Of a DNA stretch of 64,000 bases, positions 10,838 to 64,000 are shown in pieces. Every line of letters begins with the position of its first letter. Position 1 is the first letter of the stretch. A program made the translations under genes and the position numbers. Source of the DNA: Podarcis vaucheri (lineage: Eukaryota); NCBI GenBank assembly GCA_965113315.1, contig OZ220363.1, one strand, 5' to 3'. The notes beneath the pieces were generated by a model. It was given only the letters and a program-made list of their open reading frames with translations, was not told the origin of the DNA and ran no database searches.

Positions 10838-10859
10838 GTTTAACATTATGGAGAAATTC

Positions 10860-19056: not shown

Positions 19057-19148
19057 TTATACTTATGCATTTTAGATCATAATGAGTGTTCTAATAGCTT
19101 TCATGGACTTGCTAAAATACTTATGTGAGATCCCAAAGATCTGTAAAT

Positions 19149-24853: not shown

Positions 24854-24903
24854 GCTTAAAGCATGATCAGTTCAAACTTTTCTAAAGAAACATTTTTGCC
24901 TTT

Positions 24904-24922
24904 TGACCACTAGGTGGCAACC
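24904..24922 (+). promoter_or_regulatory. Candidate CTCF site
   Basis: TGACCACTAGGTGGCAACC matches the CCASYAGRKGGC core. Confidence 0.5.
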
Positions 24923-26286: not shown

Positions 26287-26322
<36 letters not shown>

Positions 26323-26329
26323 CACACAT

Positions 26330-27130: not shown

Positions 27131-29166
27131 AGGGAGACAACTACCTCTAGTTCTGTCCCCATCCTCTCTGCTGAGTTCTACAAGGACAACACCAAGGAGG
27201 AGGAAGCTGACAGGAAGTCCATCCTCTGGACTGGATGTAAGAAAGAAGGCAGGCAGGTTGAAGGGTGGGGCAGAATGAGTTTGGTGGGGCAGTGCAATAT
27301 TTGCCCTTATAGACCAGCCTTCACTGCACTGGGGCAAAAACAGTGCCCTGCTGAACCTCATAGCACAAGTGTCGTATGGCCAAAGAGGACTCTCCCAATA
27401 CTACTCTGTTGATTCAACCATACAGCTAGGAACAAAATCATTGTAATACAGTGTGTCTAGCACCCATCCTGAATGGTCAGTCCAGTGACTAGAAAAGTAA
27501 GAATAGAAGGGTTGTACTCCCCCATCCCACTTTCAATTTTAAAGACCATTCATTAGGATGACCAGGACTGCTTCAGTCCTGAAATCAGGCCTTATCCCAT
27601 GTTAAAATTGCTAAGAAACTATCAGGATGTCCTGGTCTTCCCTTCTTCCATATTTGTATGAGCCCAGCTATGATGGTATGAGCTCCTAAAGCATGTACTG
27701 TATGTGGTAGCTGCGGGCAAATATTAACCGGTCTAAAATATTTATCACCCCCACCACATATATTACAGGTGCATGACAGGGATGTATGAGGATTTTTAGA
27801 ATAGTTGTAATATTTTTATTTATTTTTAATATTAGGTTTATATGCTGCCCTTCACCCGCAGATCTCAGGGCAGTTAACAAAATAATAAAAGGTTGTTTTT
27901 GAAATTGTTAAAATACCATTGAGTTGCATCTTACACGCATGTAACTTGCGCAACTGCAGTTTTTCCTGCTTGGTGGCTGGTCAGCTGACATCGCACAAAT
28001 TACCGTAAATGCATGCATTGCAGACAGCTTAAAAGCTCTTTCCGTGGCAGGATAACCCAGTGCAGAAAGAGGTTTTAAGCTCTCAGGCTTGCTTACTGGG
28101 CTCCAGAAGGCTCTTGTGAAATCTCGGATGGCCCCATGAGATATTGTAGGTGGTAAGGCCCATTTGGCATGCTGGCTTCACAAAGGTAAGGGTGCTCATG
28201 TGGAGGAAGTTCCAGGGTTGTTTTGACTATACATGGTTTTGGATTTACACACAATCCCCAGAACACAACCCCAACCAAAGCTGCAAGTTGATTGTATTTA
28301 GTTTACTTTATATTAAGTGTAATTTTAATTAAAAAGTGTAATTTTAATGTTCTATCCAGTTTATGCACATAGGTACTCTTCCATCCTTATTAGAAGCCAT
28401 ACTTCTTTATTTCTCTTTGAGTTGCAACATACAAATAAGAACTGGATAAAATATATAATAAATTATCAAGTGTAGCATTTTTGTTACTTTTACCTAAATT
28501 CTGGCTTGCTGTCATATGTGTGTGTGTGTGACTAATCTATTAAAATCACATTATGCCTGATAAGAAAGCAGTAAGCCACTCTGATTGCTGAGTGACAGAC
28601 TTAAGAACAGTCTCAACACATTCTTTATGGCATTCAGCCAATCTCTCTAGGAACACAATGACCCCAACTTTATTCATAAATCTTAGTTTGAAAAATACTC
28701 TATTCCCTAAAGCAATTCTCAGCACTCCTTTAAAAGCTTTGGTGGGGCGGGGAGAGATCAGATTAGAGTTAAACAGGTTATGCAGATGTTATGAGAATGT
28801 AACTTCTAAAAATAACTTCATAGATCAATTTAAGTAAACTTCAAATAGAAATCTCACCTTCTGCACAGCACACCACTTGTGTGTTATATAATTCTGCTCT
28901 CAAATTATCAGATTGATATAGTAACTGTGAAAGAAAGCCTTAGACACAAAAGGACGCTTGTGCTTTAAATTGATTTCTGTCTTGAAAGTTTTATGCCAAT
29001 ACATTATGTACAGTATCTGATGGAGCTATTATGCTTGACATTGTTTTTTTAGAATGCCTCCAGGTGGACAAGAAGAGAATAAATCCTTTTAATATATATG
29101 CTCACCAAATGCATTCATAAAAGCTATATTGGGGAGGAAGATTTTGGTATTATCTCCTAACTCTTA

Positions 29167-29532
29167 GGGACGCGGGTGGCGCTGCGGGCTAAAGCCTCAG
29201 CGCCTAGGGCTTGCCGATCGAAACGTCGGCGGTTCGAATCCCCGCGGCGGGGTGCGCTCCCGCTGCTCGGTCCCAGCGCCTGCCCACCTAGCAGTTCGAA
29301 AGCACCCCCGGGGGCAAGTAGATAAATAGGTACCGCTTACCAGCGGGAAGGTAAACGGCGTTTCCGTGTGCGGCTCTGGCTCGCCAGAGCAGCGATGTCA
29401 CGCTGGCCACGTGACCCGGAAGTGTCTCCGGACAGCGCTGGCCCCCGGCCTCTTGAGTGAGATGGGCGCACAAACCCCAGAGTCTGTCAAGACTGGCCCG
29501 TTCGGGCAGGGGTACCTTTACCTTTACCTTTA
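29167..29532 (+). mobile_element. Sauria SINE, very young CpG-rich subfamily
   Basis: GGGACGCGGGTGGCGCTG head, (ACCTTT)n tail, 11-bp TSD CCTAACTCTTA (29156-29166, 29533-29543). Confidence 0.95.
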
Positions 29533-30529
29533 CCTAACTCTTATTGCAATTTTCTATAGGAAAAAATAAAGTACAACTTAGACATATTTGATGAAAGAAC
29601 ATACAAAATAAAAATAAATAAATACCAGGTACATTGGGCTGGATCCAAACCTAGACCCAATCCATGCAGTGTGTCTCCTCTTATTCTGTAGTTGCCACAT
29701 TATCTGAGACCAAGGCATGGTTTGGCTTAGTGTTATGTTTGAACCAACCAGTTTCATCCGACCACAAACCATTATTGACAAAAAGCAATAAGGATTGTGT
29801 CACATTTTTGTCTGATGTGCATAAAAAACAAGTTGCAGAACTTTGAAATGTCAATGAAAGAATGAAACTTCAAATATATAAATCTGAGGCCCCCTTTGCG
29901 TTTAAGGACCTGGGACTAATAGCCCTCCTGAACACTCCTCTCCCATACGGCCCGCCTATCTATATCCCATACTCCTTCCACTGCCATGAAGCTGACCCTC
30001 ACTGACACACAGCTACTGAAAGCCAAACATAATCACAGAAATAGCACTTAGGTAATGCCTAAGAGAAAGTGCCATAAACTAACAGCTGTGACATATAATC
30101 AATGGCGCTCCTGGTAAAACAATATTCAGAATAACCTTGCTTATTTAAAACAACATCCAATATGTACACAGAATGTTCTAACCAAGCCATTTAAAAAATG
30201 ATCACAGGTATCCAAAGAAGGTGGGTGAATTCTTATGTACTTCAAAGAGAGTTTCATGCTTTTACTTCAAATGATTAGTCTTGAAAGCAATGTAACTGCA
30301 ATATATATTAATCCACTAGAGTACACATTGAACACATTGCTTCCAAGCACCACTGACTAAGTGTCTCAACAGAATTGCTTCCATGTTATAACAGTAAACC
30401 GCTCTGTATATTTAAAGGGAATGAAAGTTACTCCTTTGCTGAAATAACATTTGCAATAGGAAACAGAACTATACGGGACTAAACAAATATCCAAACTGGT
30501 TTGTTGGTACAGATCAGTGCAGGTGAATA

Positions 30530-30771
30530 CAGTGGTACCCCGGATTACATATGCTTCAGGTTACATACGCTTCAGGTTACAGATTCTGCTAACCCAGAAA
30601 TATTACCTCAGGTTAAGAACTTTGCTTCAGGATGAGAACAGAAATAGTGTTCCGGCGGCGCAGCGGCAGGAGGACGCCCCATTAGCTAAAGTGGTGCTTC
30701 AGGTTAAGTACAGTTTCAGGTTTAGAACAGACCTCCGGAACGAATTAAGTACTTAACCCGAGGTACCACTG
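30530..30771. mobile_element. Tigger-like MITE
   Basis: CAGTGGTACC TIRs and TA TSD; reverse orientation to 11951-12169. Confidence 0.9.
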
Positions 30772-31520
30772 TACTTGCAAAACATTCACTTGTTGAAGCA
30801 CTTTGAGATGCATTTGTTCACAATCAGAGTCCAAAACAGAGACATTCTTAAGCTTTGCAGGGATAGAGCAAGGGTTCACATCTTGAACAAAGGACTTGTT
30901 CTGTTTGTAATTCTCATATGGGTATTGAGATATTTGCATTTTCCACAACAGATTCTCTCCCCGCAACTAGCATGTGTCAAATTTGAGTGAATGTATACTT
31001 AAAGAAATACAGTAGCTCAAAGGCTATCCAATATTGAGCTAAAGTAACTACTAACACATACCAAAATTGTTAACAGATGTTGCAAGCATTTACTATCTCC
31101 CTCAGTTTGACATACAGGGAACGCCGTGTTTGCACTCTGGTTGCGCTCTGGGTCAGTTTGTGAGTCAGTGGCCATGCATAAGCCTGTTCCACTCCTGCTC
31201 TGCCCCCTTCCAGAGCCAAAAGCAGCGCACATGTTGGCATGCACAAAATGGTTGCCACCTGTATGTTTGCCAGTAGGAACTCTGAAAATATTGCTGCTCT
31301 GCCACCTAAATCTAGAAAATTGATGGACACCCACCAACCTTTGAAAAGGAAGGTAGGTACGGCTGCTATAGCTACTTGGCCAGATATGCTTCAGGGTTGA
31401 ATAGAAGGCTCCCCACAATGCTTGGTGTTCATTTAAGAAAGCACTAAGGGAAAACTGTTTTCAATTAATAGAGTCCTTTCTACAGATCAGTTACATTTGA
31501 TGCAAGACACTATTGTTATA

Positions 31521-32183
31521 GGCAGTATGAGGTATGCGGAGAAGAGCGGTGGGAAATGATAGTGGAGAAGAAAAAAGGGTGATAGTAAACTGTCATTCTT
31601 TTACATAATGTGCAAGGTTTTTATGTCAGCATCATGTGGCTGGGTTCTTCATTTGTTTGTTTTCATCGGCAGTGAAAGAGATTGGGGAGCCCAGGGCATG
31701 GTTGGTTGCATTTGGTTGAGTGCAGTGAGTTTTGTTTGTGTGTGAGAGGAAATTATTTGGGGGGGGGGGTTGTTGTTGGGTCAAATTAGCCATATTGATT
31801 TGTATGCTGTTGGGGTGGGGGTTATGTTGTCTTGTTGAACTGTGTATGTAATAAAGGGGAGCCACATTGGGGTGAAGGCATCCTCTTTTGTTTGTCCCCG
31901 TGCTAATTTCAGTTTGTTGGTTAGCTTTCCTAGATGGGCTGTTTCCCATGCAGTTTGGTACCATGTTCACTCCTGACAGGTCCCTCCAGTGTCTAGTTAT
32001 GACACTCCTAGCTGCTGAGAGTAGGTGTCTCATTTGTGCTTTGTTAAAAAAGTGTGCGCTGTTGTCTTGGAAAATATTTAATAGGGCCAGTTCTGGAGTT
32101 GCTTTTCATATCTGTTTCGTTATTTTGCAGATTTCTTGTGGGACTGATGTCCAAAAGTGTTTGATTTGGGGGATGCTGGTGTG
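31521..32183 (-). mobile_element. L1-clade LINE fragment (ORF2 C-terminus + part of 3'UTR), frameshifted
   Basis: Translation HLLSAARSVITRHWRDL resembles vertebrate L1 ORF2 C-termini; possible TTGTTATA flanking duplication; no poly(A). Confidence 0.75.
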
Positions 32184-33585
32184 TTGTTATAAAATTCAAT
32201 GAGAGACAGTCTATTCCCCTCCACCCCCGTTGTATAATAATTCTTTGTCATACTGTGTCTATGTAAAGAAAGGCACTTTTCTCAGTGTGATCCTTAATGC
32301 TGTGTTAATGATCAAAATGGTTGACTCTGTCCTATAAGGACACTGACAATTACTGTCATCATACCTTGTGTGCAGCAGTTCAAGTTGTTTAAAACTTTGA
32401 TAATGACTACTTTACTGCATTTAAATGAAGGTCATTTATCCTTCCATTCCTTACTTATATAGTGCCTCTCCAAGCAACTTGCCTCAAGGCCCTTTTCAAA
32501 GAACGCTAATCAGTACACAAAATTATATTGGAGAAAACAACCTTGTCACAAATGCCATAGTACTAATACATAGTAAAAGCTAAATAAAAAAATAGTAGCT
32601 TTCCTCTCTATATTTAAAAATGTCAAACATTTCAAGTAGATAGGAATGCAGGAGATGAGAAGAGATTTCACAGTACGTATTAGGAGAAAAACTGTTAGGC
32701 GATCAGAACATTCACATGGCCAATAAAAGAAAATTGGAGACATTTGAAAAAGCACAACATTTGATGGGCAAAGCAGTGCCAAAAAATGTCATAATTGCAA
32801 ACTGTTTCTGGACTTTACATCCTATCAGCCTGACCAGCCAACTGGGAAGTCTAGCCATATGATAATAAAAAACATCTGTGACTATTTTAAGGTTTGATTG
32901 TGACAGCAATGCCATCAACGTGACAGCATTACTTACTGAAAACTGGAACCACTTCATTCAGCTTGCCAGTCCAAAAGGGTAAGAAGCATTTCTTACCACG
33001 AATAAGGGTAATGCCTTATCAGTACACACATACAACCATCCCAGACTAGCTCAGACAAATGAATTTACTTCCACTACCAGTCTGTGAAGACTTCACAAAA
33101 GATGCCTGATAATGTCACTCCTATTGTGTGAGGGTTTGCTGGCTACTTACCAGTAGCCATGCTATTGGCTGCAAATGAAATAAATGTCCCTGCTCCTACA
33201 AAAGGGGAGGGGGAAGCAATCAGGTGCTATCTCCTGGTGGTTTAGAGGAACATAGATAGTACATGATAAATAGGTTTGAAAACAGCTTTCTCCCACAAAT
33301 CAGACTCTTACGGCAGTGCCAAAAGTACATTCTTACAATGTTTTGATTACAAATTCCTTAATCTGATAGAGGCAACAGCTCCACCTTTCTTCTATCTTAA
33401 TGATTATTGGATCTCCCAGAGAAGCAAAACACCATCAAGCACTGAATTATCTGAAGATGATATCAAAAGTGAGGATTAAGAGGGTGCAGAAGATCTTCCT
33501 TGAGATCAGAGGGTTGAATCTGGTGAGCGTGTGAGTTCTTTGCAGGGCAATGATGGCTCATTCCTGTTTATTAACCATATGATTA

Positions 33586-33635
<50 letters not shown>
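33586..33635. repeat. (ATT)n microsatellite
   Basis: Directly visible. Confidence 0.95.
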
Positions 33636-33636
<1 letters not shown>

Positions 33637-33659
33637 GTGTAGCTAATTTAGTTTAATCA

Positions 33660-33830
33660 TTTGGAGAATGGAGCTGTGAGTACAGAAATCCTTGTCTGAA
33701 TTAAGCACTCAGGGTGAAGTTTAAGATGTTAGCCTCAGTTTCTATTTGCAATATGGCATTTATAATACTGGACTCCCTTACAGTGTTGTTGTGGTTGCAG
33801 AGACCGTTTATGTGAAACCCACATTAATCA
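33660..33830 (+). mobile_element. Ancient MIR/CORE-SINE remnant
   Basis: GCCTCAGTTTC...ATAATACT...CAGTGTTGTTGTG resembles the CORE domain. Confidence 0.5.
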
Positions 33831-33949
33831 TTTCCATTGGCCAATTTGTAAAAGCATTCAGTTTACATCTGGAACAGGCAACAAAGTTCAGCTACTTAAC
33901 ATAAGAGAATTAATATGAGCTGCAAGAAACTCTATGATTCCCTGAATTA

Positions 33950-34907
33950 CCGTATTTTTCGCTCTATAACACGCACCTGACCATAACACGCACATCGTTT
34001 TTAGAGGAGAAAAACAAGGGAAAAAATATTCTGAATGAAACAGTGGACGTATCATTTTTGTGCTTCATGCTGTGGCCACAGACATGTGATCTGATGGTGA
34101 ATTTGGGGTGACCCAATGCAAAAATCCTGAGAATCCCTGTGGATCCATGCTTTGTAACCACGTTTTTGCACCATTGCAGCCCCAGGCAACAGTGGGTGCG
34201 TGATTTTTTTGGGGGGGGCAGGCTGTAGCCATGGACATGCTATGTGCTCTGATGGTGAATTTGGGGTGACCCAATGCAAAGATCCTGTGGATCCATGTGG
34301 ATCCATGCTTTGTAACCACATTTTAAGTGGGGAGGGAAGGAAAAACACAGAAGGCTAAGAATGCAGGAGAAGGGCTATAACGTGAGGAAAGGAAGGCAAA
34401 AGTTTCCCCCCACCCACCCACCCACACAAGCCAGCCAGCGTGTGCTCTCTCTCTCTCTCTCTCTCCCTCTTTAAATGGAAGAAAGCATATTTGAATGCTG
34501 TGTGTCTCCAAAAACAAAAAGCAGGAAGTCAAATCAGAATTTTAAGCCGAACCTGTAATCTCTCTTCCCTTCACAAACATTGTTCCCTCCGGAGCAGGGA
34601 GAGGATAGAAGGACGGACGCTCTGCTTTCCCCTCTACTTGCCTGGAGGGGAGGGGCTTCCCCTGCTCTTTGTTCCGTTTGAGCAAACACAGCAACGAAAC
34701 AGAGAGGGCGGGCAGTAAGACCCTGAGGCAGAATGCAGGAAAGCAGCAGCTTCCTGTCTCACGGAGCTCCCTTCTCCCTGAAGCGCGGTTTGATTTTTGC
34801 CTCATTTTTCGGCTCCAGGGACCACACATTCGCTCCATAACACGCACAGACATTTCCCCTTCCTTTTTAGGAGAAAAAATCTGCGTGTTATAGAGCGAAA
34901 AATACGG
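33950..34907. mobile_element. Tc2/pogo-type non-autonomous DNA transposon (~960 bp)
   Basis: Perfect 26-bp TIR CCGTATTTTTCGCTCTATAACACGCA, TA TSD, internal ~80-bp direct duplication (~34090-34165, ~34248-34325). Confidence 0.95.
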
Positions 34908-37371
34908 TACATTTGTCAAGCGAGGTACTTATCATCCCTTAAGTTTGCATTTAATGTGCCTAGATGCAAGCTAGGGGTTAAATTGAGTTAAAAGATTGTG
35001 ATAAAGAGGCATAAAGCTGAGAACTCTATTCATTCAATCATTGTGTATTTATTAATTTAAGATTCTTCCACACTAACAATTTGTATATTGCTTAATCACA
35101 GCCATCTTTAAATGGTGTACGGAAAACACAATGCAGTAAGACTAAGAATGAGTTAAAATTATCTACACACACACATACCCCTACCTTGCAGTTGTGGCTT
35201 TCCTCATGACTAAAGCCATGTGCTGTGTGCATTTCCACACAGAGTTAGTGAGCTGAGGCTATCTTTTGATAACACTAAGTAACATGTGAACTCATTTTTG
35301 CCACTGGTACATAAGATGAAATTACAGAATGTGGGGAACAGGAAATACAAGCATCTTATTCCTAGATGCTTTGAAAACAAGATCTGTACACAACAGCCCA
35401 GATGTCTGCCTGCCATCACCTTTACCCCTGAAGCATAGGAAGTCCAAGAATTACAGGTCAATTTGCCACTTGGGAGGGGAAAACTACCAGCTAACTCCAC
35501 TGTCACCAATGAGCAAATACAGACTGTTCTACCACCACAACCTGCCTCCCAGTTTGCCAACTACGTAACATTTAATATTCTTAGGTTGCCAAAATATATC
35601 AAACTTCAAGTTCCAATTTGAGAAGCTTTATTACTATTAGGTATATGGAGGCATATGGAGTGAGAAAGGAAACAGGAAACATAAAAGGAAAAATAACAAC
35701 ACAGTTTTTTCTTACTCTCTAAACAGCCAGCACTAGACAATCATTTTAAACAGCAATAAACCAATGGAGGGTATTGGCAGGTGGGGAGGATTCTCCCATC
35801 AGGTATGATGATGTCTGTCTGGAACGTGGTGTTTCCAGCATACAGAGAGAGGGAGATAGGCCACTGGCACCTTTCAACTGAAGTAAAAGGTGAGAACTAG
35901 AATTGATTCCTAATCTATGCCTGTTACACAAAAATTAGTAATTCTAGCTTGTGTGCATGGAGAATGTTTGAAATTTGACAGGTAAGTTGCTATGTAATGG
36001 AACCTAGGTTTATTTTTTAAAAAACAGGCATTTCCCCAAAATATTGTTATCACAAGATAACTATGCTGAACTTTCATTGCATAAGCAATCCCTATAAGGA
36101 AGATTAGTTCTTACCCTACAATTTTACATAGTGCACCTAAAAGCAAAACCTAAAATTGCAATAGTAACCAGCCGTACTGTGCATCAGAATGTTAAAACAA
36201 ACGGGAGGTCACCATTCTCCAAATAAAGAAGGGGAAAGCAATGCTAAAACAGAAAGGCAAAGTATAAGAAGGGCAATACAAACAAAAGGGAAAGTCAGAG
36301 ATAGCAAGAATAAGGATAGAGCAGCAAAGGAAAATAAGACTGATATGGCACATCTATTGCATTTTCTGTTTCAATTGTTGGAATCAGAATAACATATCAG
36401 GCAGTAATGCAGCTAAAACTCAATAAAGGTAAAAATGTAGTAGCTTTATTCAGATGCATTTCTTAATCATGGCTTAGCATTACTGTACAAGAGCAAGTCT
36501 TAATGAGCTTCAAGCTTGTGTGCTCCTCTCTCTTCCGCCTGCATGGCTGCAAGCAGACGACCAGAAATTTCCATATCAATTTTAGATGAGCCAGTTTAAC
36601 ATGATGTCTGAACAGGGTTCAGTTTAACCAACTGTGGTTAATTGAAACAAGCCAGCTTCATAAGCTATGGCTTAAAATTGTCCAGGTTTGGATCACAAAG
36701 AGAAAAGTTGGGTGCATGAGCTCAGGGCTTGTCATTGTAGCAGTGGTGTTTATGGTCAAAGGCTCACTATGGCATGTTCTCGATACACTAAACTGTATCA
36801 AGAAGTACTTTTAAAGAAAGTTACTCCAGCCAAAGTTACAGGATTCCACAGCATCAAACCAGGCATGTTGTAGCAAATCATGTGCATTTGCTCCAAGATA
36901 CTTCTTACATCAGTTTGTCTTTGTTCCTGCATGTAGACTCATCTAATGCAGGTGTACTTTTCATACCACCAGTGAACAAGTTTCTTAGGTATGAATTAGT
37001 TCTATATAACTTTCTAGTAGATGGAGAAACAATGTATTGGGTTTTTTTTGACAAGGAATAATGTAGAATTAAGGATACAGCCTTGACTTTAACTGAAAAA
37101 CTATATCCCATCATTCTTTAACTACCTTATCAAATGAACATTCAACATGGCAAAACAGTAGAATTCCCCCACCTTTTAAATCATTCTTATGGGCAGAACT
37201 GAAATTATTCTAACACATTTTGATTACCAAACCAGGGGGTGGTCATTCAGTTTAAGAAGTGGTACAAGGGTGTGATCTGCTGAATGTGGTGCAAGACTAT
37301 AATTAGTTTGATACTGTATACTACCTACCCTGTAATAATCATTCTTAAGCTATGCAAGTAGCAAGGTGCTT

Positions 37372-37497
37372 CATAGATTCAGAGTTGGAAGGGACCCCAA
37401 GGATCATCTGGTCCAACCCCCTGCAATGAAGGAATCTCAACACATGGTTCCCCATCCAATCTGAAACCACATCACACCCTGCTTAGCTTTGCAGATG
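37372..37497 (-). mobile_element. 5S rRNA-like segment joined to a CR1 3' tail (SINE3-like)
   Basis: Minus strand AAGCTAAGCAGGGT-N6-TGGTT-N5-TTGGATGGG has 5S spacing, followed by a CCCTTCCAACTCT...CTATG CR1 tail. Confidence 0.7.
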
Positions 37498-38329
37498 TAC
37501 TAGTAGTTTTATTCTGCACCACTAGTTCATGTTGATGAAAGGGGGAAATTAACAACAACAACAACAAAGCCTAACAACTGTGCAATGGAAGTGGCCGTTC
37601 TTCCAGCTACAGATTCAAGCACCTTTCATGGTTTCCCCATAAGCAGTGGGAAATTTTTTTGCCCAAAGTTTTCTTCACAGTGCACTTGTCACTTCCCATA
37701 TCTTCGGCTAGCCATAATGGGCAAGAGGAAGAGAAAAAGATTAGCAGTGTGCCTGGCAGTAACGCAATTATTCAACCCAGGATTAAAATCATTGGGGCTC
37801 AAGAGTAACTGAGATTGTAGAAGAAGGGGTATGGTATGGCACCTAGACCAATAAGCAAGTGCACTAGGGGATACATTTGATTATTTGCAAACTTATGCAT
37901 ATAAAGTCTGGAAAGCACTGGGAACCCATGTTCTAAATATAAAAGGAATGATCAAATACAAGGTGTTTCATATGCTCTGCCACTGAAGAACAGAATAAGA
38001 AGTTCGAGAAACTATTAATGGCAACACAGTAAAGCCACTGGGGGAAATAAGCAATAAATCAGTTAAGCACAAAACCTGAAAGAACAAAGAGGTGCTCAAG
38101 GCTATCAAGCACCTGATAGAGAGGCTGCTTTCTGCAGATATCAAGCAAAATCAAGCACCAAAACACTGAGTTGGCAAAAAGAAGCATAATTCATTATAGG
38201 CCCTTCTGGGTTTTGTGTTGTGTGTGTGTGTGTGTGCTAGGGAATGGCTGGCCTACAGCCAATCTGGAATTTTGTGAAATTTATTATATTGTATTTCTTG
38301 CATTTATAGCCCACCTTTATCTCCAAAGA

Positions 38330-38397
38330 GCTGAGTGGGGGTTTGAATGCTGGTCTCCTAGGGTTCAGCACTCTAACCACTACACAACACTGGCTGA
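38330..38397 (-). mobile_element. Old Squam3/MIR-like SINE head
   Basis: Reverse complement reads AGCCAGTGTTGTGTAGTGGTTAGAGTG...GCATTCAAACCCC. Confidence 0.6.
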
Positions 38398-38919
38398 TTG
38401 TGTGTATGCACAGGTGTGAGAACAGTCATAGAACAACCATCCTGTTGTATTTTAATTTGCAAATTATAAAGCAACCGGGAAAGCCATCTCTATAGATTAT
38501 TTTCACCCTTTAAATATTAGTCAAATTTCTAAATCTGTCGGAAATAAAATTCACTAGCCACATGACATTGTAAGCCATAGCTAATGGTTTACCGTGCAAG
38601 AGGTCTTAGTGCCCGCTCACATAGGGGAGAAACATCCCATTATCCTTGGTTTAGCATTGCATTTGAATTGGGGATTATAGTTTGTTTAGTTCCAAACAAC
38701 CCATTATGGTAAGCTGTCACATAAATTACTCAAGATACAATCCAATTATGCACACTTACATGACACACAGTGGGCCATACTTCTAGGTAAACATGCACAG
38801 GAATATGCTGTCAGTTGATCAACTAACTGATTCATATTTTGGTCAATAACCTTTATGCAAGTCTCTGTGGAACACCCTCTCTTCAGATGTCAAGGAAATA
38901 AACAACTATCTGACTTTTA

Positions 38920-52396: not shown

Positions 52397-53981
52397 AGGA
52401 GACAGGAGGTAGAAATCTCTATAAAGACTGCATTATGAGGCACATATTTTAAAGATGACTTTGGATTACTGTTCTCATTCGATAGCCTGAGACATATGGC
52501 CTGGCATTAAAACATTGCTTCATTCTCCTGGCAATTAATTTTTTGGCTGGGAGCTAGCATAGCATAGTGCCAACAAGATCTTGCGTAAATAGGATTTTCC
52601 AGTACTCTGTAAACCTGTTATGAGGGATCAGTGACACTTCATAAAAACTACTTCAGTTGCAAGATTGGTTGCAAGACTGAAACACACACTAAGTAAACAA
52701 AAAATCCAATAGCTCTTCTCCAGTACATGCTCAAGAACACTTAGCCTCTCAGAACTCTGGGGAGCCTGTCTGCCAAGCCATCCATGGAGAGGCTAAAGCA
52801 GCTGCTCTACTCTGAACTTGGATATGGTCTTCACTTTTTCTCTCTTTCTAGAGATTCAAGCATTGGCCCCTTGTGCTTTGTCCTCTTCTATAACAGGGAG
52901 CACCCACAATGGGGCATGTTGCAAATATGGCCCTCTAGGATACAACAGAGTTGTACACAGCTAGGTACTTTTGATGGACAGCAAATCTTGGCATCAGCAA
53001 AGCCTACTGGATTCACTTCGGTGCACTGCAATAATTTTATAATGATCTAAATATAAATATGATCCCCTTTACATTTCTGCTGTCACACTGAATCGTGTCA
53101 AATATTTAAAAAGTGATGCAGAACTACACTGCTGTTTTCACCATTTATTTTAAAAACAAACAATAGAAATGGTTATTGTTAGCAGCAGGGCTAGAGCCAA
53201 TCCCAATGTTCTTGTAGCCTGCCTTTCAGTTACAATTCTGCATTGTGAAAATTTGTCAGATGGTTTGTATTTCCCTTTTAGAACCATATTTTTCCCTTTC
53301 AGTGCTCTCATTAAATTATTAGCTTCCTTAGGTTTAGATTTATGTTCAGAGAGTCAAATTATCTTCCTTTTTAAAAAGCCTCCCTGAGCCGCTTTCCCAG
53401 CTTAGTTCAGCTGCAGAAAACTACAGCACTCCAAATTTTTACTTTCTTCATAAACCACACCTGTTATATTTGATATTGCTTTCAAATGAACAAAAACTGT
53501 TAATTCCGTATCTATGCAGAGTAAGGCAGAATTTAGATGGTTAAGCAAAAACTTCTCAATTTGTTTAACAGTTGCCTGTTATACAATCGGATTTGAATTG
53601 TTCCACACTAGTTTATTAGATACATAAACGTAAATGTACACAAATCTCAAGAACATGCAGCAACAACTAATATACATCATCCACTAATATACATAATCCT
53701 TTCAGACATTCTGGTCCTTATCTGAAATCAGCTTATCTGGAATATAAATGCAAATTCTGCCATTAAAGGAAACTATGGAGGGGGCAGTCTAACTGTCCTC
53801 CCCACCCTGTGTCTCAGGCCACATTTGATCATGCCTCAGGAATGCCTAGATCTCTGACTGACTCACAATTTCTACAATTGTGCAAGGCTTTTATTATTAT
53901 TTCAGCAGTTCTGCACACAAACTGCTTTGCTTAAAACAAATGTAAGAGATTTAATTATATTTCTATAGTTATGAGACATAG

Positions 53982-54165
53982 TATTATTATTATTTAAATT
54001 CATATACCACCCTTCATCTGAAGATCTCAGGGTTTCACAGCATAAAGTACAAGATAAAAACACAAAATACATACTAAAAGAAAAGAAAACAATAACATCC
54101 CCAAACACATTTAAAAGGATATATAGGATGTGAATAAGCCAAAAGCCTGGTTGAAGAGGAAAATA
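53982..54165 (-). mobile_element. L2 3' end
   Basis: Reverse-complement similarity to ~42775-42960; further remnants at ~24125-24220, ~27810-27885 and ~45240-45530. Confidence 0.75.
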
Positions 54166-54256
54166 TAAAAAGATGCACAAACCCAGTTATAAAACTGCCC
54201 AGTTTGAACAGACAGCTATAGAGATTCAAATATTTTGACTGATGAAACTTGCATTC

Positions 54257-55088
54257 TTACTGCATACTGGTGCAATAAGATATATAAAATTTGCATGCCA
54301 TGTCATGCCAGCTGGGAAGATAATGCATCCAATCATGAGACCATGGGCAAATTCACACAACTTCACACAAGAACAGGCAACATTGATAAGATAGTTTTCC
54401 CAGGCTGCCCCAAAGCCAAGCACACACACACACACACAAACCCCCCACCATTTCTGGTAAGAGACATCACGGTCTCTCTAGCCGTTGGCTGAGCTGCTGT
54501 GATGTCAGCCAAATCAGCTGATCCAGTAATTGTCATTGAATGCTCATGAACATTAAATTTTAAATGAATAAATTTGCAGCATAAAGAGCATTAGGACAGC
54601 TGGAGCTGTAAGCTGCTGGAGGGAAACGCTGCAGAGAATGTGTTATGAGCCCACCAATAAGTAATGGCACGGCAAACGAAAAAGATGCCCAAATTATTTT
54701 TTTTTTTGGGGGGGGAGTCCCTGCTTTTAATATATTGTTATTTCTAGTCTTGCAATTTGAAAATGTTATTTCTAGAGGATCTCAGCAGTAGCCGTGGTCT
54801 TTAAATCAAGAGGATGCGCCACACAAGCTGTACTTGAGTACCTATTAGAAGATACTGAGGAGGGACAACTTCTCAAGGGTTGAATATATTGGCTCAGTAT
54901 GATACAATAGCAGAGTTTACAGTCTTTTCTTTAAAATGCTGTAATTGGCTTCTCAAAGGTACTGGAAAAGTCGTAATAGAAAAGGTCAATGGCAATATAT
55001 ATTTGTACAATAGTGAGATGCATTATCTTCCCAGCTGGCATGACATGGCATGTAATTTTACACACCATGCTGCACCAGCATGTGGTAA
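54257..55088. repeat. Long-range inverted repeat (~73-bp arms, 36-bp perfect core)
   Basis: 54294-54329 is the exact reverse complement of 55017-55052. Confidence 0.95.
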
Positions 55089-55593
55089 CTAAGAGAGACA
55101 CTGATCTCTGCTTGCTAAAATCCCAAGAACAATTGCATGCCATCATTGTAAATGACCTGTGGATGCACAGCAGTTTACATTCACATAGGTTTGCTAATCT
55201 TTCTAACAGTATATGCAAACAAAAAGACTAATGGCGCTACAGAAGTCTGGAGACAGAAAATGGCATTCTGTTTATATAGAAGTTTACTTTTCTTGCTGTT
55301 TCCCTCAGTTCAGACACATGGTTCTGGCGTGTAACTAAATGCCCATGTATTTCCATGAATTCACACTGTCTTGCTTCTTCTTGTTTTATTAATCTGGACC
55401 TGTGCATATTAAACTTCCTGAGTCATATACTCACAGCAGAAAAACAAAACAAAACAAAACAAAAGCTACATACATGATCATATATTTTCTGTATAAGAGA
55501 AGAACATTGTAAGAATTTGTAACTATGATGGAGTCCTGTGAAATCAAGCACAAGATATTCTAGGACAGAAAAGGCACTGGTAAAAATGGCGCA

Positions 55594-55750
55594 AGGGCCA
55601 TGCCTCAGTTGTAGAGCATACACCTTCCTTGTGAAAGGTCCCAAGTTCAAACCTTGGGACTGCATGTTTAAAACATTGGGTAGCTAGTGATGAGAATGAC
55701 CTGATGAACCCTAGATTCTGGAAAGCCACTGCCCATCACAGAAACAGCAA
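55594..55750 (+). mobile_element. Old tRNA-derived SINE
   Basis: A box CTCAGTTGTAGAGCA and B box GTTCAAACC; related copies at ~58728-58910 (+) and ~40436-40545 (-). Confidence 0.6.
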
Positions 55751-57262
55751 ATTGGGTATAAAGAAAATGAGATTAAGCTAGAGATAATGGTGCAAACTGC
55801 CATGCCTGATCCAACAGTTTTAAAAATAAGATTAGGCTACAGATTGTTCTAGACTTGGATCTGATCCAAAATGTATCAAGAATTTTGAGCATCCCACACC
55901 TGACAAAGAGCATAGGCCCCTAATCTTAGACCATTGCCCTTTGACCCTTCTTCACATGTATTTGAAAGGAAGGGGCAGTTGGAAGGGCTTCATACTTGGC
56001 AAAAGAAAGGTTTTACATCTCAGATCTTGCTATAGATATACAATATATGTAGGAATACTAGGAAGCAAGGGATTTGAAGTTAATAATAATAATAATAATA
56101 GGAGGTAACAAACAGTTATTTACCAATGCTGAGAAAAGGCCCAAACTCATGTGACTATTTACATGGTAAAGGTTTGTTGGTTCACATGTTTACCTAGCCA
56201 AATGTACTTTTCACTATCATCTTCTGGGGCTCACATATCTGCTAAAATATGCCACATCTCATAGCTTCTCATAGCTCTACCAAAACTAAAGTATCCTAAG
56301 AGATGATAAATTTCACATTGTCTTGCCTACTGAAGGCTTTCTTGGTGTATATTTTTTTCTTAATTCATTCCAGATCCCTTGTAAATTGTAAAACTGTCAT
56401 TACATTCTGGTGAATTTGCCCCCCCCCCATTTAATAATTATAATATCACTTCCATCTAATCCTGGAGAAACACCACATATTAATGAAGTACTATAGTGAA
56501 GATGGTCTGTTGCGGCTATCAGAGCCCTTCAGTCTAGTGGAGCCTTTTAGCAATAGAACAGAAGTTCATAGTTTGCCTCATCCATTTGGCCTTGTAGAGC
56601 TCATCTGTGGTATTTCAGCTTCTCAGGTTCCTACACACGTAGGTTAGAGGAAATGTTGCTGATGATCAGCAAAACAGTGAAAGTGCCTATACATAAAATG
56701 TTAAGGTAGAGTAATTTCTCATCGCCATAGTAAGTGAAAACATTTTCAAACTGACAGTGTCCTTTTAAAAAACAGGCTGCACAAGGATTTTGCCCAAGAC
56801 TGTGAAAAATTGGTTTTCAAACCATGATAGTTATTTTAATGCTTTAGTGTGCTTTGGTAAGTACTGCATAATCTGTCTCTAAACAATAATAATATGTTAA
56901 ACAGTAACCATGTAAAAAGTAAAAAAAAAGGTGACTTAAAATATATCTTCCAGTCTCTCTGAAGCAAAGCAAATTTTAAATAACTTGACATCCACATTCA
57001 GTGTTAATACCCCCATAAAACACAAGCCAGTACCACCCCAGGTGTGTGAGTGGCACCAGAGAGGAAATTTTGTTCACTGTCTAAACACACCTGTTCCTTG
57101 ACTAATATTTTGTGGTTTCAAAAAAAAACCCAAAAGCAACAGTATTAGATGAGAGACTTTTTTTTTTAATGTGGCTTATTTTGAGAATCCCCCTTTTTGC
57201 AAAAATCTTCCCCTGCTGCCACCACTTTGGCATCAGAAGCACATATGAAGGTAGGATGTACT

Positions 57263-57466
57263 GGGGTTGTATCCAATGAAGTGATTCGATTCATGCAAGG
57301 GCTTACTCAATGGAACTTCTCCGCCTCTCCTCTCCCTGTATCACCCAAACTGCTCTGGAGGTTTGGAGAAAACCCCAGAACATGGAGTGAAGGACAGGGA
57401 GAAGCAGCTCCGTTATGCTAGTAGAAGACCTTGCGCAAACAGGACAACTTTGTTGGGTACAACCCC
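57263..57466. mobile_element. Palindromic MITE (possibly Harbinger-like)
   Basis: TIRs GGGGTTGTATCCAA / TTGGGTACAACCCC; internally self-complementary. Confidence 0.7.
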
Positions 57467-57549
57467 CTATACTTTCATTTGGATGCAAACAGAAGCAAAG
57501 ACAATTGCAAAATTCATAAAGAACAGTTTTATTTCTCTAACATTTTGTT

Positions 57550-57655
57550 TTAAAATCTGTATTAGGGCAATACCTTTACTAGGCCAACCAAAATGTCACA
57601 AAATAGTGTGGAAGCTTTCGAATTCCCTGGAACTCTTCATCAGGGTAGGTGGTAA
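57550..57655 (-). mobile_element. Penelope-like terminal remnant with hammerhead-core-like motif
   Basis: Minus strand CTGATGA-A-GAGTTC-CAGG-GAATTC-GAAAGCTT; more decayed relative at ~59703-59800 (+). Confidence 0.55.
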
Positions 57656-60600
57656 ACAAAGCACAGGGCAGGAGACTGGCTGCGGGTGAAGCCATTGAGT
57701 CTGTGTCTAGTCAAAGCCTTAAGATAGAATTTGAGCAAACACTCAAATGAGGCATTTTCATTTGTTTTCTGTAGTAGCACAGTAGTACATTAAACTTCTT
57801 CATACCATGCACATTCTGATATTCTGGACAATTTTCACTCATACTTCGAACCACCAAAATGTTTTAGTAAATGTCCTAGTAGAATTTTACATTGTATTTT
57901 TAATTTCTATTCCGCCCCCCCCCCAATAAAAAAGTCACCAAATGGCTACAGCTATTCTAAAGGAAAGGTTATTAAAATCCCTCGTGATATCTGAAAGCAA
58001 CAGGTTTTATATTTCACTAAAACTCTCTTCAATAATGCTTTAATTGCTACAATGCCGGAATTCACAGGCATCATGTACCGAATCCTTTAACATTTACTTA
58101 ACAGGATGTCGAGCACCCTGACCTCAACGGGAGCTCTCAGATCTAAAATGTGTTTGTCAGAACATATTAAAATTGCAATGTAGACAGGGCATTTAGTATT
58201 TAACATAATGCTAGTCAAGATGGACTTTAGCATTCACAATATCACACACTGAGTGCAATTAATCCGAGGTGCAGCAGGGATAGGAACTATTACCACCCCT
58301 TCAGCATGTCTTCACAGTCACTATTACAGAATATGCACAAGCTGTTCCCACCTCCCCCTAAAAAAACAAGACCAAGATGGTGGAAAAATCCACTGCTTTT
58401 TAGCCACACAAGACTGATCAAAGATTGTTACACTGTAAATTATAAAATGTAGATTCACACATACAATGTTATATTGCAGTAACTTCCAAAGTAAATTATG
58501 TTCATTACTTAATTTCTTTACCAGCCTTAAATTTCCAATCCAGGTGGGATGGGGTTAACAAAACAATGTTATACCCCAGCAAAAAAGAAGAAGCACCAGC
58601 TCACTCTCCACTTGCATCATTCCTGGAACTTCCTACAGCACTGTACTACATTTTCTCTGCTTTGGAAATGCAATGCCGCCCTTGGCTCTTTTTGCAGGAA
58701 GGGCAGGATCAATAATAAATAAACGTGGAACGGCCATAGATCACTAGTGAAGTGCATATTTTGCATACAGAAGTTCCCATGTTCAATCTTTGGCATCTGG
58801 TAGGCCGGGGGAGACATGCAACTCTGGAGTGCTTCCAACAGACAGCATAGACCACACTGAGTTAAATGGATCTAACTCACTATAAAGCAGTTTCCCATGT
58901 TACTAACATGGGTCTCTGGCTGAGATTTCTGTTTTGCTCACATCTACTGGCTATATAGAAAGGCATTTCATTTCCATGGAGCATTAAGAGTGATTTTCCT
59001 CTGTCTATTATAGTATCATTACTCTGATCACCACCTCACCATAGAGGGGAAATCCTGTTGACTTTATTTTCCCAAGATCAAACTCATCAATTTCCCCTAT
59101 TTCCGCTCAAGTTGATGGAGTGGTGAAATTAACTGAGCCTTACCAAAATGGCCATGTCAATTTCAGGAAACTTTTAAAAGTATGTCAGATGGTGGGGCTG
59201 TGCAAAGAGGGGAGTGGTTTTCTTATGAATATTTCAAACTTTTAAAATCAAAGCAGCAAACAGCAACACAAAGAAAATAAAAGAAAAGCTGGCAGTATGA
59301 CACAGCAGGATTTCTTGCACATGCATTGCAGTTATTTCCTGTAGTAAATAACAACTTGCATGTGAAAAAACAGATATCACAGATTTATCACTCAATACTG
59401 AGCTTTCATTTGACCCAGCAGCAACTGAAATGTCCTCAACGGATAAAGTTCACATATTTATTTCAGAATGATCAAATAGAATGATCATGACTGCATAAAC
59501 AAGTTTTAAATTTATTTTTATTTTATTTTGTTTTCTTATTCACCAACAGCCAGTGCAAAATGGCAAGGAGGCTTAGAAGAGTGAATATCACATTACAACC
59601 ACTAGTACACAGCCTTGCACAGCCTTGGGGAATGAATTTGCTTTTAATTTGTAGAGGCATGCTCTAAGGGTTGTTTAAGTATTATCAATGTTTAACATTC
59701 ATCCTGAAGAGCAGCTCTGGAAAACTCAAAAGCTTGCTGGCTTGTAACTGTTTAATGGGTCCCAATAAAGGTGTTACCTTTCTATAGATTTTGGATTTTA
59801 TCTAAACTTTTTGCATGATAAAAGTAGATGCCTTTCTGGCAATTATATTTATATTTTGTCACACTATTTATTTATGACCCCCACCAGATGAAAATAATCA
59901 TTTCCCCTTTAACCTAATAACACCAACCCAAATTCCTCCCAAGGCCCCAAAAATTCCATGTTCTAAACATTAATTCCTAACCCAATGTACTGTCTTGCCT
60001 CTCAGATAGAAAACGCAGACCTCAAATTCCCCATATTATTTCTCTATCTCTCACAAGGGAGGTACACCCACCCACACCCTCAACATATACACACAGGTCA
60101 TGACATTTCCCCAGTTCACATTATATTATTTCACATCCCACTACTCCACACTGACAATCTTTCCACATCAAAGGACCAAACATATAAAATGCAGACTGTG
60201 TTCTAGAAGCCTATAATATGCATAGAAGTTCTACATAAATGAGCACAATCCAGCCAAAGTTAACAGTGATTGCAATGGGAGAGATATAAGTATGTACCTC
60301 TTTCGCTGCCCCATAACCCGCTCTGTAAGAGATAGATTTCTTCCAGAGTTGCTGAAAGGACAAGAGCACTGGTCAAATTTACAGAAAAAATGACTTCCTA
60401 TTTGCAAATAACAATGACAAGATCATTCAAAAACTGGCAGTGTTCACAGTAGCTTTGGCCTAAGCTAAACAAATGTATATAGATCCCCATGTCTTTTATC
60501 TGCAGTACTGTACAGGCAATTTTTAGTATTTGTGCGGGTCAATGAACTCGTGAAAGAATTTCATGATGTTTATTTCAGTCATGTTTTCACGTTCTTTCCA

Positions 60601-61554
60601 ACCATATCCTTCATTTAATTCCTGAAGTTGGTTTTATGTTTTTGTAAAAAATTACCTGGGTGCAAATTTGTCTTGCGTGTTTACCAATACCCTGCTCAAA
60701 AACCCCACAACTTTATAACACATTGCATAATATTTGCAACAGCTCATAATAGGGCAAATAAATATTTATTCTTCACTTTTCCACTGAAATCAGTGAAACA
60801 AAGTGTTTAGCTGTGGCTGGATATGCTCAATACATATACTGTAATTATTTGTATAAAATATTAGCACTGTACAACTGGAAAACCAAACAGCATATAAGAG
60901 ACAACACTATAAACATAATATTTTGGGCTGCTTTGACTGGAAGATATAAGTAAAAAAGCCAAAATGTTTTTTTTGGGGGGGGGATTACCTTGCAAATATC
61001 CAGAGCTAAAAAGGAATAAAAAATGTTACCAGCCAATTCATAACTAGTATCCTAAACTAACTCATGAACTTTTAGGTTAATCATTTTTATGCATCTAAAG
61101 CCAGAATCCAACTTTCTGCAGAAGGCCTACCCTCCTCCATGCCAGAAGAAACCTGCAAACAGGGTTTTTAAATAGTGCAGTATGAAGGAGAAAAAAGTTC
61201 AGTGAAGCAGCAGCGTCATGACACTCAGAATATGGTGAAAACAGCTTCCAAGAAGTCTACTATCTAATGGCCTTTGATGTTTACTGTACACTTGCAGCTT
61301 CATTACAACACTTAGCAAGCATCTGCCAAGTTGGTAGGACTGAAAGGAAAGAGATAAAAACCCACCTTTGCCTCAAAATGGGGGCAGGGGAGATCAGATA
61401 TGCCCATTCTTTTGTCAGAAAGACAAAAGTTGTTGACAAGGACAAAAGGAGATCTAGAAGCATAGCTATAATTAAAACTATTACTGATCCCCAGGGGAAA
61501 AAATCCTGGCAAATCCAAAAGCAAATGGAGGCATGACAAATATATACACACATA

Positions 61555-61780
61555 AAGTGGTACCTCTGGTTATGAACTTAATTCATTCTGGAGGTCCGTT
61601 CTTAACCTGAAACCGTTCTTAACCTGAAGCACCACTTTAGCTAATGGGGCCTCCCACCGCTACCGCGCCACCACCGCACGATTTCTCTTCTTATCCTGAG
61701 GTAAAGTTCTTAACCCGAGGTACTACTTCTGGGTTAGCGGAGTCTGTATCCCGAAGTGTTTGTAACCTGAGGTACCACTG
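61555..61780. mobile_element. Tigger-like MITE
   Basis: AGTGGTACCTC TIRs and TA TSD; same family as 11951-12169. Confidence 0.9.
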
Positions 61781-64000
61781 TACATACAAATGTGTGCATG
61801 TGCACACACATTGGTAAAATGTTTTAGACAAATGTGAAACCTCACTTCCATATTTGCTTGCTGTCATCTAGTGTGTAACACAACATAAAGAGTAACCAGA
61901 AGATTTACAATCCAAAGATGAAGATTTTACTTTGCCATGGTGAATTCACTTCATAAAACAGAGAGAGAACACTTCAGTAGAAAATGTTGGCAGACCTCTT
62001 GGGAGTAACAGGGCACATTAATTTATATGACATGCTGCCCTGTTTCTCTTATAGAGGCCCATAGGAGGAGTTTGCTACCCTGAGCTTTTACTTAGGTCCC
62101 TAATGAAAATAAAAATGTTTTCAGCCCGTTAGTTGGGCACTTTAAACTATCATGCATGCCTTTCTTTGTACGTCCACCTCCCACCCCTACAATTTTTTAA
62201 AAAAACAAATATTACCTCTAAGTATATATGACTAATACGATTCAAAATTTATAAGATGCAATTGAAACAGCACAAGTGACACACACTTCAGTGTGCTGTT
62301 ATTGGGTGCAATGGACACCCTAAAGCACACAAAAGCCAAGAATCACACTGCTGCTATTGCAACCTTTTGTACAAGCAATATTATGACGTGTTAGTGTATT
62401 TTTCAATGCAAAAAGTGAATGTTTAATGGGAACAAAACCCCTTAAGTCCCTACTGGTCTTTTCATGGATTTGTTTGCTTTTGCTGTGTGTGCTTTTCTGC
62501 AGCCCCAACAAACTGCTGCTATATGGCCGTTTTTAGGGGTTCTCCCTAGCTAGCCAAATCAGCAGTCACTCAGGGCAAACAAAAGCATGTCTTCACTGTC
62601 CTTACTCTGAAGGGGTGGGTGAGAAAGGAGAAACTATAATGTGGATCAGAGAGCCAAAGGAAAGGAGAGACTATGATTTGTATCAGAGATCCTGTGAGCA
62701 GAACTCTGTCCATGGGCTGCGCCTACTTGCAGAAAGGATATTTTCAGATCCCCCTTCACTGCCCAAAAAAATCTCAAGAGCTGTCTGACCCCCTTCACCA
62801 TGGCGGGGCAGGGGCAAGCAAGATTGTAGAGTCCAACTCCACCTTTCTGTGGTTTCACAATTAGAGTTAAGTAACATGAGAGGGAAGTCAGGATCAGGGT
62901 TGTAGCCTGGGTAGGCTAAAAACAGCATTTATGCAGTGCACTCTTTGTTAGATGAGATTATGTAATCCATAATGATTTAAAGCTCTAATGTCCTCCAGGC
63001 ACTGCCACCTACCCCATGTGTGGCCCCTGAAATGGTCAGTTCTGTATCTGGCTGTTAGTCAATTGAAAGAAAGGAGTTGTTAACATTTAATCACCACAGA
63101 ATCAGATAGCTTAAAACAAGGTAAAAAAAATGTCATTTTGGCAAAACAGTCAAGGCAGCAAAAAAGCATGAATTGTGCCAGGAAAGGCCAATTGTCAAAA
63201 AAATTGGCTAAATGTCCTTCTGTTTCAGACAATAGCTTATAAAGAAATTAAGAGTCAGTTAAACTAATTCACTTTAGAGGAGCTTGCCATCATAAGGCTG
63301 ACAGAATTCCAGTAGTTCAATAGTGAGACACAGAAACTGTCAATGGTCCCTCAAGCAATTAATTTTCTCCCAGCTCTTCAGAACTGCATTTCAAGAAGTA
63401 TTTGCAGGATCCGACCTAACCTTACCAGGAAATGCCCAAACAAAACAGTGCTGCCACATCCTAAGCCTTATCAGAAAGTTGAAAGTAGTGACCCACTAAG
63501 AGAGAAAACACTAAGCAATATTTTAATTACGGTACGTGCTTCATAATAACTACTAAAAAAAACAACATTAAACTCAAACTAATCACACTTGTTACCTAAC
63601 TCAGATTTAGACTTCTGTAGGTGCAGAGTGAAATATTTAGTTCATTATCTATATACAATGCATACTAGAAATAGCTGCTTACATAAAACAAAAGTATAGG
63701 GTCCAATTCTTACATGCAAACAGTGACATGGAGGCTGTTCAAAACTCACAAGTGTATATAGTCTGCCAGGTGGGTCAAACAAAAATAAGACGATACGGGA
63801 AACTGATATACATATTTAAACAAACAAAGTCCTCAACTCATGGTTTGTAGCCTGACCTGAAGTGGGTTGCAAATGGAATTTAGGGATGGGGTGCTGGTCA
63901 TGGGCACAAACAATCAATATGGTAGTAGTAGAATGTGTGTAGAATAAAAGCTCCCCCCCACTTGAAAATAGCTTCCAGACAGTCTTGAAGAAGCTGGCCT

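What the first reader, a model, noticed from the sequence alone, without database searches (positions are those of the whole stretch)
54257..55088. Long-range inverted repeat with a perfect 36-bp core bracketing a TE-free, conserved-looking block
Seen: arms at 54257-54329 and 55017-55088. The inner 36 bp (GATGCATTATCTTCCCAGCTGGCATGACATGGCATG) are exactly complementary, while the outer ~37 bp carry about 10 substitutions, nearly all transitions, plus one indel. The core holds several GCATG motifs (TGCATG at 54292). The ~690-bp spacer includes a complex TAAT/CAGCTG-rich block (54480-54700). Established: (U)GCAUG is the RBFOX motif, and long intronic duplexes can act as RNA bridges or ADAR substrates. 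Inference: the uneven divergence suggests selection on pairing or arm-to-arm conversion. The alternative is an ancient TA-flanked DNA transposon with long TIRs.
Basis: partly seen in the sequence, partly recalled or inferred. Interest (0 to 1): 0.7.

Follow-up and report, generated by a model that had tools for sequence, protein, structure and literature searches.

The report
Overwritten inverted copy in fidgetin intron
Inside the large intron of a lizard's fidgetin gene, a 73-base stretch sits 687 bases from a reversed copy of itself, and the inner 36 bases match perfectly, likely because one copy overwrote the other during DNA copying rather than because the RNA needs to pair.

Summary
The inverted repeat is real: arms 54257-54329 and 55017-55088, an inner 36 bp that match perfectly, and 9 transitions, 1 transversion and 1 indel in the outer 37 bp. 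No other copy was found in this 1.6-Gb genome. It lies mid-way in the 118-kb intron of fidgetin (FIGN), 52 and 65 kb from the splice sites. Contig break points in four organisms about 1% diverged imply the same 36-bp core, with variants segregating inside the left core in two. The spacer diverges like the flanks, and the 'conserved-looking' block is not conserved at this depth. Best reading (0.55): an old local inverted copy, possibly a dead transposon's ends, whose inner half was later recopied arm to arm by template switching or gene conversion. A selected RNA duplex (0.2) is not excluded: no distant orthologue could be reached and editing stayed untested. Interest is low.

The parts
54257..54329 (.). 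left arm of the inverted repeat (73 bp)
54294..54329 (.). perfect 36-bp core, left copy; variants inferred at 54304 (run X18) and 54312 (run X16)
   Evidence: contig ends table 8 (inference)
54257..54293 (.). diverged outer part of the left arm; carries the A/T base at 7 of 9 transition sites
   Evidence: K2P distance to the right arm 0.39
54330..55016 (.). 687-bp spacer, single copy, with (CA)n and T/G runs; diverges like the flanks among relatives (1.1-1.3%)
55017..55052 (.). perfect 36-bp core, right copy
55017..55088 (.). right arm of the inverted repeat (72 bp); no difference listed for runs X4 and X12
1..64000 (-). host: large intron (118,097 bp) of fidgetin (FIGN), between the ATG-bearing micro-exon (L022:2893-2917) and the long coding exon (L056, from 8795 down)
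53980..54161 (.). high-copy repeat fragment 95 bp outside the left arm; not part of the inverted repeat

Best explanation
This is an old, single-locus inverted copy of 73 bases inside the FIGN intron, whose inner 36 bases were likely recopied from one arm onto the other in a later DNA-level event (template switch or short gene conversion), so the perfect core is likely a copying scar and not a selected RNA stem. Shown: the repeat, its host gene and strand, the absence of detectable further copies, the step from 28% mismatch to none, and the abrupt loss of similarity inside the core. Inferred: (1) the first copy is old (outer arms 0.35-0.39 substitutions per site apart) and came from a local inverted duplication or a dead transposon's ends; (2) a strand copying one arm from outside inward paired with the other arm and copied it for 36 or more bases before returning, which explains why the perfect part is the inner part and ends sharply; (3) this happened before the sampled organisms split but, if neutral, less than about 0.04 substitutions per site ago; (4) the FIGN pre-mRNA would fold the arms into a stem of about 70 bp, as a by-product that could be edited.
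For: Perfect run P = 0.0009 under uniform decay. A neutral core as old as the outer arms would stay perfect with P about 1e-6 to 5e-6, but with 0.65 at the depth of the species split. No similarity in the inner flanks (score 16 against 16.5 +/- 3 in shuffles) or outer flanks (14 against 15.8 +/- 2.8). All 36 pairs are Watson-Crick, with no G-U, as copying gives. Contig ends at 54323/54300/55046/55023 imply the same core limits in X4 and X12, and the right-hand ends recur in X16 and X18; extra ends at 54311/54313 and 54305/54334 imply segregating variants inside the left core (inference). Spacer divergence 1.07-1.34% against flanks 0.72-1.64% in 4 of 4 runs. No strand preference of the mismatches (P = 0.18); whole-region folding is -274.2 on the minus and -272.6 kcal/mol on the plus strand. 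Conversion of near-perfect into perfect inverted repeats by template switching is described in PMC5453318, PMC7954356 and PMC8604942 (passages read).
Against: The cited template-switch work concerns templates tens to hundreds of bases away; 687 bp is at the long end. The arms show 0 variable sites in X4 and X12 against 1.7 expected (P = 0.18), and 54723-55425 shows 2 against 8.4 (scan P = 0.07), so mild constraint around the right arm is possible. The outer arms alone pair better on the transcribed strand (-35.6 against -24.8 kcal/mol). FIGN is a known cluster of conserved non-coding elements (PMC1896008, passages), which raises the prior for function. The donor arm and the ancestral state were not determined.
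Confidence: 0.55

Rival explanations
1. Selected long-range RNA duplex: the arms pair in the FIGN pre-mRNA (an ADAR substrate or a structure that affects processing of the 118-kb intron), and purifying selection keeps the inner 36 pairs while the outer part drifts.
For: Strong predicted stem on the transcribed strand (z = -8.3 against 20 shuffles; arm duplex -107.7 kcal/mol). The middle of the outer arm stays paired through 5 G-U pairs on that strand. The core is shared by related organisms. Low variation around the right arm, scan P = 0.07. Conserved complementary intronic regions below -30 kcal/mol are enriched in A-to-I sites in human (10.1101/2020.05.05.076927, passages).
Against: No compensatory change was seen. 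4 of 9 transitions give A-C on the transcribed strand, and the strand test gives P = 0.18. Variants appear to segregate inside the left core in 2 of 4 runs (inferred). Sharing at 1% divergence is expected under neutrality (P 0.42-0.65). The nearest exons found are 52 and 65 kb away, with no strong exon or AG|GT site in the loop. No Rfam family at gathering score.
Confidence: 0.2
2. Relic of an ancient non-autonomous Tc1/mariner-type DNA transposon of about 830 bp with 70-bp terminal repeats and a TA target. This explains the origin of the arms; the perfect core still needs later arm-to-arm copying.
For: TA at 54258-54259 and 55086-55087. The adjacent TG (left) and CA (right) mismatch fits decay of one CpG in each arm (inference). 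TA-flanked elements with terminal inverted repeats are common nearby, e.g. 33948-34909.
Against: No second copy. Four BLAST searches of the own genome returned only this locus, and 0 of 22 other pattern hits (12 + 4 + 6) extended beyond the pattern. One such scan would catch a family of about 16 copies at 75% identity or 42 at 70%. Relatives' contigs laid at 80% show near single-copy depth. TA makes up 7% of dinucleotides and is self-complementary. Dfam and Repbase were not searchable.
Confidence: 0.2
3. Scar or hinge of a micro-inversion: the spacer has flipped, once or repeatedly, through exchange between the arms, and each exchange homogenised the inner arm.
For: Inter-strand template switches can homogenise arms and invert the spacer (PMC8604942, PMC5453318, passages; PMC8755829, abstract). 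Most contigs break at the core, so the spacer's orientation is unresolved in most runs.
Against: The one contig that crosses the left core (X18, 54234-54334) continues 5 bases into the spacer in the reference orientation. None of the 15 joints shown changes strand (17 not shown).
Confidence: 0.1
4. Two chance insertions of a high-copy repeat in opposite orientation.
For: Most of the other 6 local inverted repeats in the 512 kb examined involve multi-copy sequence.
Against: No further copy of the arm was found in the genome, and depth in relatives is near single-copy.
Confidence: 0.02

Closest known systems
Quasi-palindrome correction / template-switch homogenisation of inverted-repeat arms (PMC5453318, PMC7954356, PMC8604942; passages read)
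   Same: A near-perfect inverted repeat with a perfect sub-tract and a sharp edge; inter-strand switches can copy inward from a pre-existing arm.
   Different: The spacer is 687 bp, longer than the tens to hundreds of bases those papers analyse. No pre-event ancestor was available here.
Pairs of conserved complementary regions (PCCRs) in vertebrate introns (10.1101/2020.05.05.076927; passages read)
   Same: Intronic, long-range, very stable predicted duplex in a developmental gene surrounded by conserved non-coding elements.
   Different: Deep conservation and compensatory change, which define PCCRs, were not shown. Sharing is known only at about 1% divergence.
RBFOX RNA bridge (ENAH exon 12; described in 10.1101/2020.05.05.076927, passages read)
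   Same: Long-range intronic duplex with GCATG motifs in or near it.
   Different: No regulated exon next to either arm, and no TGCATG on the transcribed strand.
Non-autonomous Tc1/mariner elements and ancient low-copy repeats (Eulor, UCON; PMC5753468, passages read)
   Same: Terminal inverted arms bounded by TA, size about 830 bp.
   Different: No second copy found. Terminal repeats would start perfect throughout and decay evenly, whereas here only the inner half is perfect.

Membership tests
Template-switch / conversion-homogenised inverted repeat | Perfect tract longer than uniform decay allows, within a diverged repeat | tested here: met
   P = 0.0009
Template-switch / conversion-homogenised inverted repeat | An outgroup shows the pre-event state, with several differences erased at once | not testable with these tools
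   No vertebrate outgroup held; the runs found are about 1% diverged
PCCR / selected long-range RNA duplex | Both arms in one intron and able to pair on the transcribed strand | tested here: met
PCCR / selected long-range RNA duplex | Both arms conserved beyond neutral expectation | tested here: inconclusive
   0 variable sites against 1.7 expected, P = 0.18; core variants inferred in 2 of 4 runs
PCCR / selected long-range RNA duplex | Compensatory substitutions | tested here: inconclusive
   None among the 40 rows shown for four close runs (51 rows not shown); too little divergence for power
ADAR substrate | A-to-I edits in the arms | tested here: inconclusive
   No read covered the arms
RBFOX RNA bridge | UGCAUG on the transcribed strand beside an arm | tested here: not met
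   TGCATG only on +; the minus strand has GCATG at 54298, 54308 and 55070 only
RBFOX RNA bridge | Regulated exon next to the other arm | tested here: not met
   Exons found are 51.8 and 65.5 kb away; only isolated splice-like sites in the loop by a rough matrix; an unannotated exon is not excluded
Tc1/mariner non-autonomous element | TA dinucleotide at both ends | tested here: met
   weak, as TA is common and self-complementary
Tc1/mariner non-autonomous element | Dispersed copies in the genome | tested here: not met
   a very old low-copy family could be missed
Tc1/mariner non-autonomous element | Empty site with a single TA in an outgroup | not testable with these tools
   No outgroup genome held
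Eulor / UCON ancient repeats | Match to a Repbase or Dfam consensus and conservation across amniotes | not testable with these tools
   Neither library is held
Fidgetin (host gene) | Full-length identity to named fidgetins, with the N-terminus formed by splicing across this intron | tested here: met
   92% identity over 100% of the query to P0001, named fidgetin; the micro-exon and long exon join in frame to give P0001's first residues

The most novel reading that the evidence does not exclude
An unreported long-range RNA stem in the 118-kb FIGN intron, born from a local inverted copy and then kept under selection in lizards or more widely, which is edited by ADAR or shapes processing of this intron, with arm-to-arm DNA copying helping to keep it perfect.
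Probability: 0.15. Interest if true: 0.55.

Novelty: new member of a known kind. Interest (0 to 1): 0.24.

Why it matters
On the best reading it is a tidy example of arm homogenisation across a spacer of about 0.7 kb in a vertebrate intron. It is also a caution: a perfect complementary core shared by close species is not by itself evidence of a selected RNA structure. If deep conservation or editing were found, it would be a new structured element in a developmental gene known for its conserved non-coding DNA, testable with compensatory mutants.

Tried and rejected
RNA evidence. No RNA holder was listed among the indexed runs. Three raw RNA runs, of which 6-12% was read, gave 1, 2 and 2 reads on 54170-55570 and none on the arms; one contig of a run guessed to be RNA (X20, organism F, depth 2.8) covered 54671-54856. 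None of this counts for or against expression or editing. Distant orthologues: two exact 20-base scans of metagenome contigs found 0 matches, which says little, as vertebrate DNA is rare there. Rfam: nothing at gathering score near the repeat; one sub-threshold mir-3910 match outside it (24 against 95 bits) was rejected. Print: six 18-base words from the arms and spacer occur in 0 papers; listings for FIGN/fidgetin with intron, conserved-element, editing, splicing or circular-RNA terms showed no title on this element; the .doc supplements of PMC1896008 could not be read and its .xls was not opened, so FIGN element coordinates there are unseen. Coding exon in the window: none recognisable by rough exon scans. 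Recursive splice site in the loop: the AG|GT sites at 55156 and 54841 rank 22nd and 73rd of 235 in the window; rejected. Third partial copy at 55128-55143: matched by 3.7-6.2% of 4,628 background stretches; not counted. Earlier scan notes held nothing near this place or like this sequence.

Full report
1. Observation. The arms lie at 54257-54329 and 55017-55088, 687 bp apart. Of 73 aligned columns, the inner 36 (54294-54329 / 55017-55052) match exactly. The outer 37 hold 9 transitions, 1 transversion and 1 indel. Similarity stops sharply at both ends: inner flanks score 16 against 16.5 +/- 3 in shuffles, and outer flanks 14 against 15.8 +/- 2.8. With 11 differences placed at random, a run of 36 or more occurs with P = 0.0009, though the finding was chosen for this. 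The outer arms are 0.35 (JC) to 0.39 (K2P) substitutions per site apart. The transition excess is not significant (P = 0.15).

2. Copy number. The window is G000:C1:111228001-111292000 in a 1.61-Gb genome. BLAST with the whole element, one arm, the spacer block and the right-hand region returned only this locus (the tool warns that counts are lower bounds). Three pattern scans gave 12, 4 and 6 hits besides the arms; 0 of these 22 resembled the arm outside the pattern. One 20-base, 2-mismatch scan would catch a family of about 16 copies at 75% identity, 42 at 70% and 124 at 65%, so only a very old, low-copy family can hide. Among 7 local inverted repeats in 512,320 bp, this is the only one with both arms unique in the 464 kb compared.

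3. Host gene. I fetched 200 kb on each side. L056 carries a long minus-strand ORF that is 92% identical over its whole length to P0001, named fidgetin. L022 carries the ATG micro-exon beside a CpG island. The donor and acceptor join in frame to give the first residues of P0001. The whole window therefore lies in a 118,097-bp FIGN intron read from the minus strand, with the repeat 51.8 kb from the donor and 65.5 kb from the acceptor. FIGN is one of the genes surrounded by fish-to-human conserved non-coding elements (PMC1896008 and PMC4302572, passages).

4. Consequences for the RNA reading. The single TGCATG (54292) is on the + strand. The transcribed strand has GCATG at 54298, 54308 and 55070, and GCATG occurs at 1.4 per kb on that strand anyway. 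The arms would pair on either strand: -274.2 kcal/mol, z = -8.3 on minus; -272.6, z = -11.5 on plus. On the transcribed strand 5 of the 9 transitions give G-U and 4 give A-C. The outer arms alone pair better there (-35.6 against -24.8), but 18% of the 512 ways to assign the mismatches do as well for the whole duplex. A rough splice-site matrix from recall finds no convincing exon or recursive site in the loop. No Rfam family reaches its gathering score.

5. Related organisms. Of 24 runs listed, 18 hold half or more of the words, from five coded organisms. I laid 4 of them, one each of organisms B, C, D and E. Contigs end or begin at 54323, 54300, 55046 and 55023 in X4 and X12, and at 55046 and 55023 in X16 and X18. 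These are the ends expected if a 31-letter assembly graph meets an exact repeat with the limits 54294-54329 and 55017-55052, so the same perfect core is inferred in all four. Extra ends at 54311/54313 (X16) and 54305/54334 (X18) imply variants inside the left core on one haplotype; their letters were not shown, and such bubbles are probably visible only near the repeat. Spacer divergence is 1.07-1.34% and flank divergence 0.72-1.64%. For site counts I used the 30 listed sites of X4 and X12 in 2,510 bp, leaving out the repeat at 53979-54169 and the rows of X16 and X18, whose lists were cut. The arms have 0 sites against 1.7 expected (P = 0.18). The stretch 54723-55425 has 2 against 8.4 (scan P = 0.07). 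So the block is not conserved at this depth, the arms are uninformative, and the zone around the right arm may be mildly constrained.

6. Mechanism. Under neutrality, 72 core positions stay matched with P = 0.65 at 0.006 substitutions per site, 0.056 at 0.04, and about 1e-6 at the age of the outer arms. So either the core was recopied between the species split and about 0.04 substitutions per site ago, or selection has held all 36 pairs without one wobble for the life of the repeat. I favour copying (inference, 0.55). A strand that copies one arm from outside inward, pairs with the other arm and copies it before returning leaves a diverged outer part, a perfect inner part and a sharp inner edge, which is the pattern seen. 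Template switching that perfects inverted repeats and can invert spacers is described in PMC5453318, PMC7954356 and PMC8604942 (passages), PMC8755829 (abstract) and PMC8794818 (search listing only), mostly over shorter distances. The first origin may be a local inverted duplication or a dead TA-flanked transposon (0.2): the ends carry TA and a CpG-decay-like mismatch, but no family was found. The left arm has the A/T base at 7 of 9 transitions, which would fit the right arm being closer to the ancestor (weak inference). A selected duplex (0.2) has for it the stability, the G-U-paired middle segment, the gene's context and the quiet zone at the right arm. Against it stand the lack of covariation, of a nearby exon and of a strand preference, and the inferred core variants. 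A flipping spacer (0.1) is unresolved, as most contigs break at the core; one haplotype of X18 crosses it in the reference orientation.

7. Comparison and novelty. It works like a homogenised quasi-palindrome with a long spacer. It does not meet the features of an RBFOX bridge, and it does not meet the dispersed-copy test of a transposon family. PCCR and ADAR membership remain untested (criteria from 10.1101/2020.05.05.076927, passages; Eulor/UCON from PMC5753468, passages). Eight paper searches showed no description of this element, within a library that lacks most subscription journals. Verdict: a real, single-locus feature of a known kind; interest 0.24; the novel case of a selected, edited stem has probability 0.15.

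Noticed in passing
window 54723-55425: Low variation among relatives around the right arm (2 sites against 8.4 expected; scan P = 0.07).
   Followed up: partly
window 55128-55143: A 16-base near-copy of the left arm's core edge, 40 bp outside the right arm; it could pair locally with the right arm. Background frequency 3.7-6.2%.
   Followed up: yes
L051:857-7310: Young-looking Gypsy-type LTR retrotransposon with a 388-aa gag-like and a 1268-aa pol-like open frame between near-identical LTRs (family name from recall).
   Followed up: no
L042:3048-8470: A 1,696-bp inverted repeat at 99.8% identity with a 2,031-bp spacer and internal inverted structure: a very recent element or duplication.
   Followed up: no
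window 33948-34909: Element of about 960 bp with perfect 28-bp terminal inverted repeats that begin with TA; a relative lies at L047:4940-5409.
   Followed up: no
window 19149-19400 and 20289-20540: 253-bp direct duplication at 98% identity; a similar stretch appears in L022 near 8500-8700.
   Followed up: no
window 47523-47580 (-): tRNA-like match, probably the head of a short interspersed repeat.
   Followed up: no
L053-L021 (around the FIGN intron): Repeat coverage falls to 0-14% across the FIGN region, against 11-47% further left, as expected for a regulatory domain.
   Followed up: no
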